A DNA stretch of 64,000 nt from a virus. The stretch spans positions 54,418 through 118,417 of IMG/VR virus record IMGVR_UViG_3300021963_007890; one strand, written 5' to 3'. The notes below the pieces were generated by a model, which saw nothing but the letters and a program-made list of their open reading frames with translations, made no database searches and was not told the origin of the DNA. This document shows positions 61,669-64,000 of the stretch, piece after piece. Position 1 is the stretch's first letter. Each line of letters starts with the position of its first letter. A program made the position numbers and the translations under genes.

Positions 61669-62603
61669 AAATTGTTTATGTTACTGGCTGCTTGGGATTC
61701 ATTGGATTTCATCTTACTAAAAAATGTCTAGACAGAGGTTGGTATGTGGTAGGTGTTGATAAAGAAACATACGCAGCTAATCTAAATTTTTTGCCTATTT
61801 TAAAAGAGTACAGTAACTTCAAATATATAAAAGAAGATATTAGAAATTTAACTTATCTTTTAGATTGTGATTATGTTATTAATACAGCAGCAGAAAGTCA
61901 TGTCGATAACAGTATTGTTGGCAGCGAAGTTTTCTTAGATACTAACATATACGGAGCTCATAATTTATTAAATTTATTACAAAAGAACAAATTTAAAGTT
62001 CCAACATTTTTACATTTTAGTACCGACGAAGTATACGGTGACATCGTAACAGGATCCCATACTGAAGTTGATTTGCTGAAACCCAGTAACCCTTATAGTG
62101 CTACCAAGGCCAGTGCAGACATGTTGATCAGTGCTTGGGCTAGAACTCATGATATTCCTTGGGTAATTGTACGCCCTACAAACAATTACGGAATTGGTCA
62201 ATATGTAGAAAAGCTGATTCCTAAAAGTGTAAAATATTTGAATATCAATCGTCCTATACCTTTACATCAAAACGGAACTCCTCGCCGTACTTGGCTCCAT
62301 GTTAGTGACACAGTAGAAGCAGTTATAACTATCATTGATAAAGAAGTCACAGGAGAAATCTTTAATATTAGTGGAAACTATGAAGAAAGTAATTTGGAAA
62401 TTGTAAAGCAAATTATCAAACTTACTCGTCATACTGATCATTATGAAGAGTTTATTGATTTCAAATTCAGTCGACCTGGGCAAGATGTTAGATATAGCAT
62501 TGACGATACTAAACTACGAGCGTTAGGTTGGAGTGCCAAAGCGGACTTTAACATTGAGCTAGCTAAAATAGTTCAGTACTATAAACAGAATTTTGTGTGG
62601 TAA
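61665..62603 (+). CDS. rmlB: dTDP-glucose 4,6-dehydratase
   Basis: TGCLGFIG, AAESHVD, STDEVYG, PYSATKA, NNYG and RPGQDVRY. Confidence 0.92.
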   Translation: MKIVYVTGCLGFIGFHLTKKCLDRGWYVVGVDKETYAANLNFLPILKEYSNFKYIKEDIRNLTYLLDCDYVINTAAESHVDNSIVGSEVFLDTNIYGAHNLLNLLQKNKFKVPTFLHFSTDEVYGDIVTGSHTEVDLLKPSNPYSATKASADMLISAWARTHDIPWVIVRPTNNYGIGQYVEKLIPKSVKYLNINRPIPLHQNGTPRRTWLHVSDTVEAVITIIDKEVTGEIFNISGNYEESNLEIVKQIIKLTRHTDHYEEFIDFKFSRPGQDVRYSIDDTKLRALGWSAKADFNIELAKIVQYYKQNFVW

Positions 62604-62613
62604 AAACAACAGG

Positions 62614-62819
62614 TTGACAACTGAGATAAATAAATACATAATAGATATATTGTTAGTTCAGTGCTTTACGATGTTGTGGTATAAAAACAACGGTAAAATA
62701 AGTAGTTGACAATTAAAGAAATAGGCATTACAATAGATTCATGCGTTAGAGATTGTGTTGTTTTAGAGCAAGTAGCAAAAAAACAACAGGTTGACAACGT
62801 GCTAATAAGGTAGTATAAT
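62614..62819 (+). promoter_or_regulatory. Three tandem sigma70 promoters upstream of the tRNA operon
   Basis: TTGACA-17-CATAAT (62614), TTGACA-17-TACAAT (62706) and TTGACA-17-TATAAT (62791). Confidence 0.85.
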
Positions 62820-62857
62820 TTGTCGTGTAGTAATTAAAAAGGAAACGAGATTCAAAA

Positions 62858-63004
62858 ATGAAACCCAGTGTAAGATCAACAAAGCATTATAATAGCAAGC
62901 CCCAGAATTATGGCTTTACAGCCTGTTCTTGGTCTGCGATTAGAATGTCAAGTTATGATCGCACACCAGAGGGTAGTCGGGGTCCAAAGGAGACCGGTGT
63001 ATAG
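62858..63004 (+). CDS. Putative attenuator leader peptide (48 aa)
   Basis: Manually translated: MKPSVRSTKHYNSKPQNYGFTACSWSAIRMSSYDRTPEGSRGPKETGV*; AAGGA/GAG upstream. Confidence 0.6.
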   Translation: MKPSVRSTKHYNSKPQNYGFTACSWSAIRMSSYDRTPEGSRGPKETGV

Positions 63005-63035
63005 AAGTAGATAACACCAAACTCTAAAGGACCCC
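62979..63035 (+). promoter_or_regulatory. Putative antiterminator hairpin
   Basis: Nested pairings ggggtcc(62979)/ggacccc(63029), ggag/ctct and ggtgt/acacc. Confidence 0.65.
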
Positions 63036-63063
63036 AGGATTGACAACCCTGGGGTTTTTTGTT
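63031..63063 (+). terminator. Intrinsic terminator (attenuator)
   Basis: accccagg-attgacaac-cctggggt-tttttgtt. Confidence 0.88.
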
Positions 63064-63316
63064 ATAGTAGTACATGTTATAGGGAACGCGACCCTGCGGT
63101 GCATGTAAAACATGCCGCAAATGAGGGCGGAGACAGGGATGATAAGTCTGGGGCGATAACTCAGATGTGTAAAAACTGTCAGTAATAAAGCAGATTGCCG
63201 AACAGACAAATGGTGTAGTATGCCGATGAGTAGTCTGCTTTATTACACACACTCGTCCATCTGTACATAGTACACTGGGGCAGAAAGATAAACTGCTAGA
63301 GTGTGTTAACAATTAT

Positions 63317-63404
63317 GGGGGCTGTTCTCTGCGGGTGACTGTAAATCACTTGCCATAATATGCAGAGTGGCGGCAGTTAGGTTCGATTCCTTCAGTCCCC
63401 ACCA
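63317..63404 (+). tRNA. Atypical tRNA-Tyr(GTA)-like RNA
   Basis: Acceptor helix plus ACCA, anticodon arm gtga-ctGTAaa-tcac and TTCGATT loop, but no canonical D arm. Confidence 0.55.
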
Positions 63405-63409
63405 AATAA

Positions 63410-63486
63410 GCCGGTTTAGCTCAGTTGGCCAGAGCAGTGCTCTTGTAAAGCAAAGGTCGTCAGTTCGAATCCGACAACCGGCACCA
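63410..63486 (+). tRNA. tRNA-Thr(TGT)
   Basis: Cloverleaf, loop ctTGTaa, encoded CCA. Confidence 0.92.
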
Positions 63487-63492
63487 AACAAT

Positions 63493-63566
63493 TCCGGGGT
63501 AGTATAATGGCAGTGCGGCGGTCTCCAAAACCGTTAGTGGGGGTTCGATTCCCTCCCTCGGAGCCA
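63493..63566 (+). tRNA. tRNA-Trp(CCA)
   Basis: Loop ctCCAaa, G73, CCA end. Confidence 0.92.
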
Positions 63567-63572
63567 AACATT

Positions 63573-63647
63573 GGGCTGGTAGTGATAATGGTAGCACAGG
63601 GGCTTTGCAAGCCTTTAGTCGGAGTTCGATCCTCCGCCGGTCCACCA
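63573..63647 (+). tRNA. tRNA-Ala(TGC)
   Basis: Loop ttTGCaa, G3:U70 pair, CCA end. Confidence 0.92.
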
Positions 63648-63652
63648 AATAT

Positions 63653-63727
63653 GGTCTCTTCGTCTATCGGTGAGGATAGCGGCTTGTCACGCCGCAGAGA
63701 CGGGTTCGACTCCCGTAGGGACCGCCA
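63653..63727 (+). tRNA. tRNA-Asp(GTC)
   Basis: gcggc-ttGTCac-gccgc, G73, CCA end. Confidence 0.92.
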
Positions 63728-63733
63728 AACTGT

Positions 63734-63807
63734 TGGGGTATGGTGTAATGGCAACACAGTAGATTTTGATTCCACTGCTCTTGGTTCGATTCCAGGTACC
63801 CCTGCCA
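63734..63807 (+). tRNA. tRNA-Gln(TTG)
   Basis: Loop ttTTGat, unpaired 1:72, G73, CCA end. Confidence 0.88.
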
Positions 63808-64000
63808 TATTGAAGCACATTTTGATGCCTATAAGGCAACAGAGTTGATCGCCTGTTGTACGGTGTGTGATGGGTGTGTTTCAATATGGTGAGTAGGAAG
63901 TAACCGTGAGCCGACTTGGTGAGGTTGCAGACTAAAGATCAACTTCGACCGCGTAGATAGTCCGGACTATCGTTTGAAACGGAAGATGCATCCATCCCCT

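What the first reader, a model, noticed from the sequence alone, without database searches (positions are those of the whole stretch)
62858..63063. Leader-peptide attenuator gating the phage tRNA array: a candidate general sensor of tRNA depletion
Seen: between the triple promoter and the tRNAs lies an unannotated 48-codon ORF containing 19 of 20 amino acids (only Leu is absent), including single Trp, Cys, His, Gln, Asp and Phe codons and three each of ACA and TAT. Its last 8 codons form the 5' arm of a long hairpin (ggggtcc/ggacccc, ggag/ctct, ggtgt/acacc). The 3' arm of that hairpin overlaps the 5' arm of a strong terminator (accccagg/cctggggt plus U-tract), so the two structures are mutually exclusive. 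Known: this is the logic of trp/his attenuation, but those leaders have runs of one amino acid and control biosynthetic genes. Inference: a ribosome reaching the stop masks the antiterminator and transcription terminates. Stalling at any earlier codon (starvation, or tRNA cleavage by host anticodon nucleases) frees it and switches on the replacement tRNAs. I know of no description of such a codon-diverse attenuator on a phage tRNA operon.
Basis: partly seen in the sequence, partly recalled or inferred. Interest (0 to 1): 0.88.

Follow-up and report, generated by a model that had tools for sequence, protein, structure and literature searches.

The report
All-amino-acid leader switch before phage tRNAs
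A tiny gene that uses nearly every amino acid ends inside a stop/go RNA switch in front of this uncultured phage's tRNA genes, as in over a hundred related phages, so the phage probably makes more tRNA when ribosomes decode slowly.

Summary
Observation confirmed. The 48-codon ORF (62858-63004, 19 of 20 amino acids), the long hairpin (62979-63035) and the overlapping terminator (63029-63060) are all present.

The same module heads tRNA arrays in 133 analysable leaders from uncultured phage contigs:
- The ORF is always open. Its stop always lies in the 5' half or apex of the hairpin, although the hairpin's base stem falls in all three codon phases.
- The antiterminator and terminator stems covary.
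- The peptide evolves almost freely (dN/dS about 0.8), yet 113 of 127 distinct peptides contain all 20 amino acids. Column-shuffled alignments give 27.8 +/- 4.1.

I read it as a ribosome-dependent transcription attenuator (confidence 0.62).

Caveats:
- Translation is not shown, and the ribosome-binding site is weak.
- At equilibrium the terminator state is the more stable.
- The window's copy lacks Leu and the small downstream gene seen in most relatives.
- The window alone carries a strong promoter-like site (63040-68) inside the terminator that could bypass the switch.

This scan has noted the same family on other DNA (e1-6049458 and others). Eight literature searches found no published account.

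The parts
62614..62819 (+). Three tandem sigma-70-type promoters. First hexamers at 62614, 62706 and 62791; the last ends with TATAAT at 62814-19, so the start is expected near 62826.
   Evidence: matches of 11, 11 and 12 of 12. In relatives, 121 of 128 leaders have an 11-12 of 12 promoter within 130 nt upstream of the ATG.
62858..63004 (+). Leader ORF: 48 codons plus UAG, with 19 of 20 amino acids (no Leu).
   Evidence: The family ORF is open in 133 analysable leaders. The other two frames carry 2.8 and 4.3 stops on average over the same span. dN/dS is about 0.8. 113 of 127 distinct peptides hold all 20 amino acids.
62921..62974 (+). Hairpin inside the ORF (P0), in which the invariant UGG pairs with the conserved CCA. 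A possible pause or synchronising hairpin.
   Evidence: -20.3 kcal/mol, z -3.0 in the window. In the family, the GG of the Trp codon pairs downstream in 110 of 133 leaders, but the median energy z is only -1.2. Support is weak.
62979..63035 (+). Antiterminator hairpin of three helices. The stop codon 63002-04 lies in its apical loop.
   Evidence: -25.1 kcal/mol, z -4.88. Covariation of the base stem. Model R1 hits once in each of 100 sources; the window scores 75.2 bits at 62968-63061.
63029..63063 (+). Intrinsic terminator: stem 63029-38 with 63048-57, 9-nt loop, U tract 63055-60. Its 5' arm is the 3' arm of the antiterminator.
   Evidence: -16.7 kcal/mol. On 100 sequences the stem is 89.3% paired, with 3 pairs changed on both sides and a covariation score of 0.115 against 0.075 in shuffles (0 of 500 as high).
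63040..63068 (+). Promoter-like site overlapping the terminator: TTGACA in the loop, 17 nt, then TG-n-TATAGT. Specific to the window. Start expected near 63075.
   Evidence: 11 of 12, with TG. Only 1 of 117 distinct terminator regions scores 10 or more, and that is the window; 114 have no site. TTGACA occurs in the loop in 1 of 34 distinct terminator hairpins.
63078..63807 (+). What the switch gates: structured RNA 63078-63315, a tRNA-like element 63316-63405 (GUA anticodon), and tRNA-Thr, Trp, Ala, Asp and Gln at 63410-63807. The contig ends at 64000, inside RNA-like sequence.
   Evidence: z -4.8. 90 of 99 leaders with at least 1.5 kb downstream have 3 or more same-strand tRNAs within 1.5 kb. 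The median is 24 tRNAs within 9 kb in 53 loci.

Best explanation
The element is a ribosome-dependent (leader-peptide) transcription attenuator at the head of the phage's tRNA operon. It is built to sense decoding speed in general, not one amino acid.

Proposed mechanism:
1. Strong tandem promoters start a transcript whose first feature is a 42-50-codon ORF.
2. The last 7-9 codons of that ORF are the 5' strand of a long antiterminator hairpin. The 3' strand of the hairpin is also the 5' arm of an intrinsic terminator.
3. If the leading ribosome keeps up with RNA polymerase, it unwinds and covers the 5' strand and halts at a stop codon in the hairpin's apex. The stop lies 23-37 nt before the shared arm, so the shared arm stays free.
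4. The terminator then forms, and transcription ends before the small gene, the structured RNA and the tRNAs.
5. If the ribosome is delayed at any earlier codon, the antiterminator forms first and polymerase reads through.
6. The leader is kept stocked with all 20 amino acids, mostly one or two copies each. A shortage of any charged tRNA, from starvation or from host tRNA-cleaving defences, would therefore raise transcription of the phage's own near-complete tRNA set.

What is shown here: the anatomy, its conservation, covariation of both stems, the frame-independent placement of the stop, and the all-20 composition.

What is inferred: that the ORF is translated, that the antiterminator wins kinetically when no ribosome is present, and the direction of the response.

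In this particular phage the device looks partly eroded or bypassed. It has no Leu codon and no downstream small gene, and a promoter-like site sits inside the terminator.
For: 1. Conserved module. 133 analysable leaders came from IMG/VR contigs, found by three independent anchors.
- 90 of 99 with enough flank are followed by 3 or more same-strand tRNAs within 1.5 kb.
- 121 of 128 have an 11-12 of 12 promoter just upstream.

2. Both alternative structures covary, and they always overlap.
- The key pair reads AU 53, GC 33, GU 12, other 2.
- The antiterminator covariation score is 0.178, against 0.140 +/- 0.007 in shuffles (0 of 500 as high) and at most 0.095 in slid registers.
- The terminator stem scores 0.115 against 0.075.
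- In 133 of 133 leaders, the minimum-energy fold of the RNA made before the terminator's 3' arm appears ties up 4-9 nt of the terminator's 5' arm. With the upstream part shuffled this falls to 1324 of 2660, and the natural folds are 13.1 kcal/mol more stable on average.

3. The ORF matters as an ORF (129 distinct leaders).
- The other two frames carry 2.8 and 4.3 stops over the same span, and are open in 8 and 0 of 129.
- The base stem starts in codon phases 2, 1 and 0 in 61, 35 and 33 leaders.
- The in-frame stop falls in the 5' half or apex in 129 of 129, against 96 and 52 for the other frames.
- In four leaders listed (L121, L133, L169, L178) the ATG lies 6-7 nt after the -10 hexamer, consistent with leaderless mRNAs.

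4. The product is not under ordinary protein selection.
- Variation by codon position is 1.05, 0.94, 1.05, and dN/dS is about 0.8.
- The neighbouring small gene ORF2 gives 1.24, 1.06, 1.50 and dN/dS of about 0.45.

5. Composition is under selection.
- 113 of 127 distinct peptides (median 47 aa) hold all 20 amino acids.
- Column-shuffled alignments give 27.8 +/- 4.1, with a maximum of 40 in 500.
- 3.4% of random peptides of the same pooled composition are complete.
- ORF2 is complete in 4 of 82.
- Equal-length windows of long genes hold 17.0 kinds on average.
- Single-copy Cys sits in 14 different alignment columns, His in 9 and Tyr in 10.
- 92 of 127 peptides are already complete before the base stem starts.

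6. Environmental RNA. Metatranscriptome contigs of relatives cover the leader. Whole contigs from two studies both end at 63070 (X20 62767-63070; X21 62848-63070). This is a weak hint only.
Against: - There is no direct evidence of translation.
- The Shine-Dalgarno match is weak. In the window, AGGA lies 14 nt and GAG 8 nt before the ATG. Among 103 distinct upstream regions the best core is only GAG in 43 and none in 24.
- At equilibrium the window's full sequence prefers the terminator, extended into the U tract, plus the apical helix: -31.0 against -25.1 kcal/mol. Read-through therefore depends on an assumed kinetic advantage of the antiterminator.
- A shuffled upstream part already ties up the terminator arm in half of the trials.
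- The proposed pause hairpin P0 is only weakly supported in the family.
- Leader codons are not enriched for codons read by the phage's own tRNAs: 67.4% against 69.5% in control genes, and the leader is higher in only 20 of 53 loci.
- A nucleotide-level conserved block (UGG ... GAUCGYACACCAGAG) is not fully explained.
- In the window, the promoter-like site at 63040-68 could make tRNA transcription independent of the switch.
- Contigs cannot show RNA ends or levels.
Confidence: 0.62

Rival explanations
1. A general sensor of translation capacity that is not specific to aminoacyl-tRNA. The same switch would respond to ribosome availability or initiation (host shut-off, ribosome-targeting defences or antibiotics, timing of infection), and the amino-acid content of the leader would be incidental to its function.
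For: - The anatomy is identical to the best explanation.
- The weak ribosome-binding site would make the switch sensitive to initiation capacity.
- Leader codons are not matched to the phage's own tRNAs.
- Known uORF attenuators such as whiB7 respond to many kinds of translational stress (PMC10274678, abstract read).
Against: This reading leaves the all-20 composition unexplained. That composition is maintained through positional turnover: 113 of 127 peptides are complete, against 27.8 +/- 4.1 when columns are shuffled, and Cys sits in 14 different columns.
Confidence: 0.15
2. An ordinary small early gene followed by an ordinary terminator. The peptide acts in trans, for example as a small inhibitor. 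The long hairpin would be an mRNA-stabilising or RNase III processing structure that happens to abut the terminator.
For: - A conserved motif is present: an invariant Trp, and Asp-Arg-Thr-Pro-Glu in most members.
- Strong promoters lie upstream.
- Long irregular hairpins are typical RNase III sites in phage early transcripts (recalled, not tested here).
Against: - dN/dS is about 0.8 and variation is flat across codon positions, unlike ORF2 in the same loci.
- The conserved motif is conserved at nucleotide level, with GAU in 70 of 72 and ACA in 62 of 71. That points to RNA, not protein.
- The C-terminal third is read in three different frames.
- No Pfam or PHROG family matches.
- The overlap of hairpin and terminator is kept through compensatory changes.
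Confidence: 0.12
3. An untranslated structured small RNA of about 235 nt ending at its own terminator. The reading frame would be a by-product of conserved RNA sequence.
For: - The whole transcript 62826-63075 is strongly structured: -76.7 kcal/mol, z -5.72.
- Conservation acts at nucleotide level.
- The ribosome-binding site is weak.
- Leader-sized contigs occur in metatranscriptomes.
Against: - The frame is open in every analysable leader, while the other frames are closed.
- The ATG is invariant.
- The stop stays in the hairpin's 5' half or apex through shifts of frame.
- The all-20 composition has no meaning for an untranslated RNA.
- No Rfam family reaches its threshold. The best hit on the leader is NsiR1 at 26.5 bits against a threshold of 39.
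Confidence: 0.08

Closest known systems
Leader-peptide attenuators of enterobacterial amino-acid operons (trpL, hisL, pheL, thrL, ilvL), known from textbooks; pheL in PMC3082878 (search listing and start of abstract only)
   Same: - A short translated ORF lies in the 5' leader.
- A terminator and an overlapping antiterminator are present.
- The stop codon is placed so that a terminating ribosome blocks the antiterminator.
- Stalling upstream gives read-through.
   Different: - There are no runs of one or a few regulatory codons. Instead about one of each of the 20 amino acids is present.
- The regulated genes are tRNA genes of a phage, not biosynthetic enzymes.
- There is no clear 1:2 pause hairpin that competes with the antiterminator.
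- There is no sequence similarity.
whiB7 uORF attenuator of mycobacteria (PMC10274678; abstract read)
   Same: Stalling in a uORF leads to antitermination. Deprivation of many different amino acids, and knock-down of tRNAs and tRNA synthetases, activates it. [quoted passage not shown]
   Different: - The whiB7 uORF is enriched for alanine, not balanced over all 20 amino acids.
- It controls a transcription factor in Actinobacteria.
- It is neither phage-borne nor upstream of tRNA genes.
- It is unrelated in sequence.
Antibiotic-responsive ribosome-mediated attenuators (vmlR PMC9226507, msrD 10.1101/2021.11.29.470318; search listing and start of abstracts only)
   Same: Stalling in a leader ORF is sensed largely regardless of amino acid and relieves premature termination.
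   Different: Those respond to drug-bound ribosomes and control resistance factors. Selection for all 20 amino acids in the leader is not mentioned in the parts I saw.
Cryptic long tRNA operon (trn) of Anabaena PCC 7120 (PMC8421152, term search only; PMC10272220, start of abstract)
   Same: An accessory array of many tRNA genes is silent in standard conditions and is switched on under translational stress.
   Different: Control is by a transcriptional repressor, TrcR (PMC10272220 abstract). The words attenuat-, leader and terminator occur 0 times in PMC8421152. The array is bacterial and on a megaplasmid, not in a phage.
T-box riboswitches (recalled)
   Same: They sense tRNA charging through an antiterminator/terminator choice in a 5' leader.
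   Different: T-boxes bind uncharged tRNA directly and need no translation. No T-box or other Rfam family matches here.

Membership tests
Ribosome-dependent (leader-peptide) transcription attenuator | A short ORF in the 5' leader, downstream of the promoter and upstream of the regulated genes | tested here: met
   ORF 62858-63004 lies after the promoters at 62614-62819 and before the tRNAs. It is present in 133 analysable relatives.
Ribosome-dependent (leader-peptide) transcription attenuator | An intrinsic terminator between the leader ORF and the regulated genes | tested here: met
   GC-rich stem plus U tract at 63029-63060, -16.7 kcal/mol. The stem is 89.3% paired with covariation in 100 sequences. 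Activity was not tested.
Ribosome-dependent (leader-peptide) transcription attenuator | An alternative antiterminator structure that shares nucleotides with the terminator | tested here: met
   5-7 nt are shared in the window. 4-9 nt are tied up in 133 of 133 leaders, against 50% in the shuffled control. Compensatory changes are seen.
Ribosome-dependent (leader-peptide) transcription attenuator | A stop codon placed so that a terminating ribosome occludes the antiterminator's 5' strand but not the terminator | tested here: met
   The base stem starts 21-28 nt before the stop in most leaders, and the shared arm starts 23-37 nt after it. The stop lies in the 5' half or apex in 129 of 129. The ribosome footprint size is taken from general knowledge.
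Ribosome-dependent (leader-peptide) transcription attenuator | Regulatory codons: a run or enrichment of the sensed amino acid | tested here: not met
   No runs are present. Instead all 20 amino acids occur in 113 of 127 peptides, mostly in one or two copies. This is the feature that makes it a new variant.
Ribosome-dependent (leader-peptide) transcription attenuator | A functional ribosome-binding site, and translation of the leader | tested here: inconclusive
   SD-like cores are weak, upstream regions are A-rich, and some variants look leaderless. Translation itself cannot be tested with these tools.
Ribosome-dependent (leader-peptide) transcription attenuator | A pause hairpin that synchronises polymerase and ribosome | tested here: inconclusive
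   P0 at 62921-62974 has z -3.0 in the window. In the family the median z is only -1.2.
Ribosome-dependent (leader-peptide) transcription attenuator | Read-through that depends on leader translation and on aminoacyl-tRNA supply | not testable with these tools
   This needs reporter, Term-seq or in vitro coupled assays.
Any curated RNA family (Rfam 15), including T-box | A covariance-model score at or above the family's gathering threshold | tested here: not met
   In one search (62000-64000, E up to 1), only the tRNAs pass. The best hit on the leader is NsiR1 at 26.5 bits against 39.
Known protein families for the leader peptide (Pfam-A, PHROGs) | A profile match | tested here: not met
   0 families at E up to 1 for the window's peptide.

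The most novel reading that the evidence does not exclude
The leader is a deliberate 'one of each' gauge of the whole aminoacyl-tRNA pool. Selection keeps a codon for every amino acid in about 40 codons upstream of the switch. Loss of any single host tRNA species, through starvation or through anticodon nucleases and other tRNA-targeting defences, would then derepress the phage's own near-complete tRNA set, a small helical protein and a structured RNA within seconds. That would be the first attenuator known to control tRNA genes, and the first with a pan-amino-acid sensor.
Probability: 0.5. Interest if true: 0.92.

Novelty: new variant of a known kind. Interest (0 to 1): 0.85.

Why it matters
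Why phages carry tRNA genes has been debated for decades. Recent work points to replacing host tRNAs that are degraded or cleaved by defence systems (PMC10264068, PMC11555353, PMC12409363; listing and start of abstracts only). How phage tRNA arrays are regulated is largely unknown.

A conserved switch that reads the decoding speed of a test peptide containing every amino acid would show that these phages monitor the host's tRNA pool and respond on demand. It would add a new logic, pan-amino-acid sensing, and a new target, tRNA genes, to classical attenuation.

It would also give a compact natural sensor of translation stress. The system is directly testable, because the leader is about 240 nt and uses sigma-70-type promoters.

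Tried and rejected
- Close relatives among cultured phages. None was found. Megablast of 22.6 kb gave no match. blastn of 62550-64000 hit only the tRNA genes. blastn of a majority-type leader gave no match. A protein search with the 630-aa ORF found only DnaK homologues.
- Exact terminator string in IMG/VR: 0 hits.
- RNAalifold on the first MAFFT alignment returned only the terminator, with no covariation. Those sequences had been selected by a terminator pattern, so this was uninformative.
- An all-against-all column covariation scan was too permissive and noisy. I kept only one observation from it (see Noticed in passing).
- The model-fitted alignment A3 still has register slips of one base in the base stem and aligns the apical helices poorly. 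Paired percentages for helices 2 and 3 (54.8% and 38.2%) therefore understate what single-sequence folds show.
- Idea that leader codons mirror the phage's own tRNAs: not supported (67.4% against 69.5%).
- Idea that the conserved Trp...Asp-Arg-Thr-Pro-Glu motif is a TnaC-like arrest motif: dropped. The spacing varies (W to D is 18-36 nt) and conservation is at nucleotide level.
- My earlier view that peptide conservation argued against a general sensor was reversed.
- Host assignment. Of 118 pattern hits in bacterial and archaeal genomes, only 1 is a real leader: L376, a 6.2-kb contig of a MAG labelled Polynucleobacter sp.. This is a weak hint only.
- Metatranscriptomes. The runs are kept as contigs, so depth, ends and strand cannot be used as evidence. 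Parts without cover mean nothing.

Rows dropped:
- Of 143 distinct nhmmer segments, 6 had no ORF matching my criterion. Four begin within a few bases of the end of the stored locus (L160, L166, L238, L268). L117 has an ORF without the motif. L277 was not examined.
- 4 of 137 lacked a UUUUU tract or a hairpin in the search range.
- Of 30 motif matches without the exact terminator pattern, 5 were unrelated DNA and 1 (L100) has the hairpin deleted.
- Supplementary files of papers were not consulted.
Full report
**What is in the window**

The + strand carries three consensus sigma-70-type promoters, with first hexamers at 62614, 62706 and 62791 matching 11, 11 and 12 of 12 positions. They are followed by a 48-codon ORF at 62858-63004. 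Five canonical tRNA genes lie at 63410-63807. The ORF product has 19 of the 20 amino acids and lacks only Leu.

The last eight codons form the 5' strand of a three-helix hairpin at 62979-63035 (-25.1 kcal/mol, z -4.88). The UAG stop at 63002-04 sits in its apical loop. The 3' strand of the hairpin, GGACCCC at 63029-35, is also the start of the 5' arm of a terminator: stem 63029-38 with 63048-57, U tract to 63060, -16.7 kcal/mol.

The simple terminator scan missed this terminator because its loop is 9 nt long. No Rfam family reaches threshold on the leader. The window is the 3' part of a 118,417-bp phage contig of 37.9% G+C. The contig ends 193 nt after tRNA-Gln, so the tRNA array is probably cut off.

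**Relatives**

No cultured phage shares the region. In IMG/VR I reached relatives by three routes:
- through the upstream sugar-dehydratase-like gene: 80 loci, of which 3 carry a leader;
- through a terminator pattern: 92 stretches;

A profile search over all loci gave 174 hits and 143 distinct segments. Of these, 137 have the ORF and 133 could be analysed fully (dropped rows are listed under Tried and rejected). The window's genome has one copy.

The context is constant:
- 121 of 128 leaders have an 11-12 of 12 promoter within 130 nt upstream of the ATG.
- 90 of 99 with at least 1.5 kb of downstream DNA have three or more same-strand tRNA genes within 1.5 kb.
- The first tRNA lies at a median of 444 nt.
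- The arrays are large, with a median of 24 tRNAs in 9 kb across 53 loci.
- In 90 of 133 leaders, a 42-65-codon ORF (ORF2) starts shortly after the U tract. The window and its nearest relative for the downstream RNA, L111, lack it.

**The two structures**

The RNA made before the terminator's 3' arm appears folds so that 4-9 nt of the terminator's 5' arm are paired upstream. This holds in 133 of 133 leaders. A control with the upstream part shuffled does the same in 1324 of 2660 trials, so the baseline is high. The natural folds are 13.1 kcal/mol more stable on average.

The stronger evidence is covariation. The base stem occurs in these forms:

| 5' strand / 3' strand | Leaders |
|---|---|
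| AGGGUCC / GGACCCU | 47 |
| GGGGUCC / GGACCCC | 42 |
| G-U intermediate | 4 |
| GGGUUC / GAACCC variants | 6 |
| GGGUCU / AGACCC | 1 (L111; its terminator 3' arm changes to match) |

A covariance model built on the antiterminator hits exactly once in each of 100 sources over 1.07 Mb. Results on its alignment:
- The key pair reads AU 53, GC 33, GU 12, other 2.
- The covariation score is 0.178, against 0.140 +/- 0.007 in shuffles (0 of 500 as high) and at most 0.095 in slid registers.
- The terminator stem is 89.3% paired, with three pairs changed on both sides. Its score is 0.115 against 0.075, with 0 of 500 shuffles as high.

That alignment has register slips and is poor at the apex, so its figures for helices 2 and 3 are underestimates.

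One result goes against a simple picture. When the window's full sequence, U tract included, is folded at equilibrium, the terminator state plus the apical helix wins: -31.0 against -25.1 kcal/mol. As in classical attenuators, the antiterminator would have to win by forming first.

**Is the ORF meaningful?**

In 129 distinct leaders the ORF frame is open. The other two frames carry 2.8 and 4.3 stops over the same span, and are open in 8 and 0 cases. The ATG is invariant.

The distance from the conserved Asp codon to the base stem takes values in all three residue classes modulo 3. The stem therefore starts in codon phases 2, 1 and 0 in 61, 35 and 33 leaders. The same RNA motif is read as Arg-Val-Arg, Gly-Ser or Gly-Pro. 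Even so, the first in-frame stop after the stem start lies in the 5' half or apex in 129 of 129 leaders, against 96 and 52 for the other frames.

In four leaders listed (L121, L133, L169, L178) the ATG lies 6-7 nt after the -10 hexamer, as in leaderless mRNAs.

Against translation, SD-like cores are weak. There is no direct evidence of translation.

**What is selected in the peptide?**

It is not the sequence. Variation is flat over codon positions (1.05, 0.94, 1.05) and pairwise dN/dS is about 0.8. ORF2 from the same loci shows the usual coding pattern (1.24, 1.06, 1.50; dN/dS about 0.45).

The conserved block (UGG, then GAU CGY ACA CCA GAG) is conserved at nucleotide level. It partly pairs within a hairpin, P0. 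That hairpin has z -3.0 in the window but only a weak energy signal across the family.

What is kept is the composition.
- 113 of 127 distinct peptides (median 47 aa) contain all 20 amino acids, and 10 of the 125 with controls contain 19.
- Equal-length windows of long genes from the same loci hold 17.0 kinds on average.
- Random peptides of the leaders' own pooled composition are complete in 3.4% of draws.
- ORF2 is complete in 4 of 82.
- Shuffling residues within alignment columns leaves 27.8 +/- 4.1 complete peptides, with a maximum of 40 in 500 shuffles.
- Rare residues are mostly single copy and move about. Cys is single in 107 peptides and spread over 14 columns; His is spread over 9 and Tyr over 10.
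- 92 of 127 peptides are already complete before the base stem begins, with a mean of 19.6 kinds in about 38 codons.
- Distinct codons per position are 0.758 against 0.61 in controls.
- The codons are not specially those read by the phage's own tRNAs (67.4% against 69.5%).

The sequences are related, so none of these counts is a formal probability. A tree-aware simulation is still needed.

**Mechanism**

The best reading is a ribosome-dependent attenuator. A ribosome that keeps pace melts and covers the 5' strand and stops in the apex, 23-37 nt before the shared arm. The shared arm is then free to form the terminator.

A ribosome delayed at any earlier codon lets the antiterminator form, and polymerase reads through into ORF2, the structured RNA and the tRNAs. 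The all-20 composition makes the delay sensitive to any amino acid or tRNA.

Shown here: anatomy, conservation, covariation, stop placement and composition. Inferred: translation, kinetics and the direction of the response.

Metatranscriptome contigs of relatives cover the leader. Whole contigs from two studies both end at 63070. Contigs cannot establish RNA ends.

**This window in particular**

The window's copy departs from the family in four ways:
- It lacks Leu, as do 5 of 127 peptides.
- It lacks ORF2.
- It has three rather than one or two upstream promoters.
- It carries a strong promoter-like site in the terminator: TTGACA in the loop and TG-n-TATAGT after the U tract. This is unique among 117 distinct terminator regions.

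If that site is active, tRNA transcription here is at least partly independent of the switch.

**Comparison with what is known, and novelty**

The device works like the trp, his and thr leader-peptide attenuators. Among known systems, its broad sensing most resembles the whiB7 uORF attenuator (PMC10274678, abstract). It differs from both in its balanced all-20 leader and in controlling tRNA genes of a phage.

The Anabaena trn operon is a tRNA array induced by translational stress, but through a repressor.

Eight full-text searches (and the term search) found no description of a leader-peptide attenuator on a tRNA operon.

This scan has reported the same or similar devices on other DNA. I tested the central claims independently here.

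Noticed in passing
window 63078-63315: Strongly structured RNA between the terminator and the tRNA-like element: -77.9 kcal/mol, z -4.8. No Rfam match. Its start (AUAGGGAACG...) and later blocks are shared with relatives such as L055 and L111. Whole 177-nt metatranscriptome contigs from two runs span 63078-63246. It may be a stable non-coding RNA co-transcribed with the tRNAs.
   Followed up: partly
window 63316-63405: A tRNA-like RNA with a GUA (Tyr) anticodon arm and ACCA end. ARAGORN does not call it, and Rfam scores it only as tRNA-Sec at 24.5 bits against a threshold of 47. The D-arm region CUCUGC is complementary to GCAGAG in a long variable arm; in relatives the two read CCCUAC and GUAGGG. 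Its 23-nt T-arm motif occurs in 31 IMG/VR stretches. It may relate to the tRNAs with unusual cloverleaves of PMC5389517 (listing only).
   Followed up: partly
relatives, e.g. L002:8098-8250, L055:880-1041 (-), L163:8879-9052 (-): A small gene starts about 20 nt after the terminator's U tract in 90 of 133 leaders. It shows a coding signature (dN/dS about 0.45). The seven products printed are 50-58 aa and look helical by eye. It has no Pfam or PHROG family. It is absent from the window and from L111. Function unknown, but it is gated by the same switch.
   Followed up: partly
window 62900 and 62921 (alignment columns 74 and 95): Two positions 21 nt apart in the ORF swap together (G-C in 57 leaders, C-G in 48). 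This corresponds to exchanged hexamers AUGCCC...AUAGCC versus AUAGCC...AUGCCC on either side of a conserved GGC. It may be a small hairpin whose partner strand can lie on either side. Unexplained.
   Followed up: no
L100:7790-7920: A variant in which the antiterminator hairpin is deleted, so that the ORF runs through a minimal terminator. It is a natural 'no antiterminator' allele that could serve as a comparison.
   Followed up: no
window 63810-64000: More hairpin-rich, RNA-like sequence follows tRNA-Gln up to the contig end. RNA-library contigs of two runs cover 63874-64000.
   Followed up: no
L376 (6.2-kb contig of a MAG labelled Polynucleobacter sp.): This is the only real leader among 118 pattern hits in bacterial and archaeal genomes. 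It is a weak hint that hosts include freshwater Betaproteobacteria.
   Followed up: no
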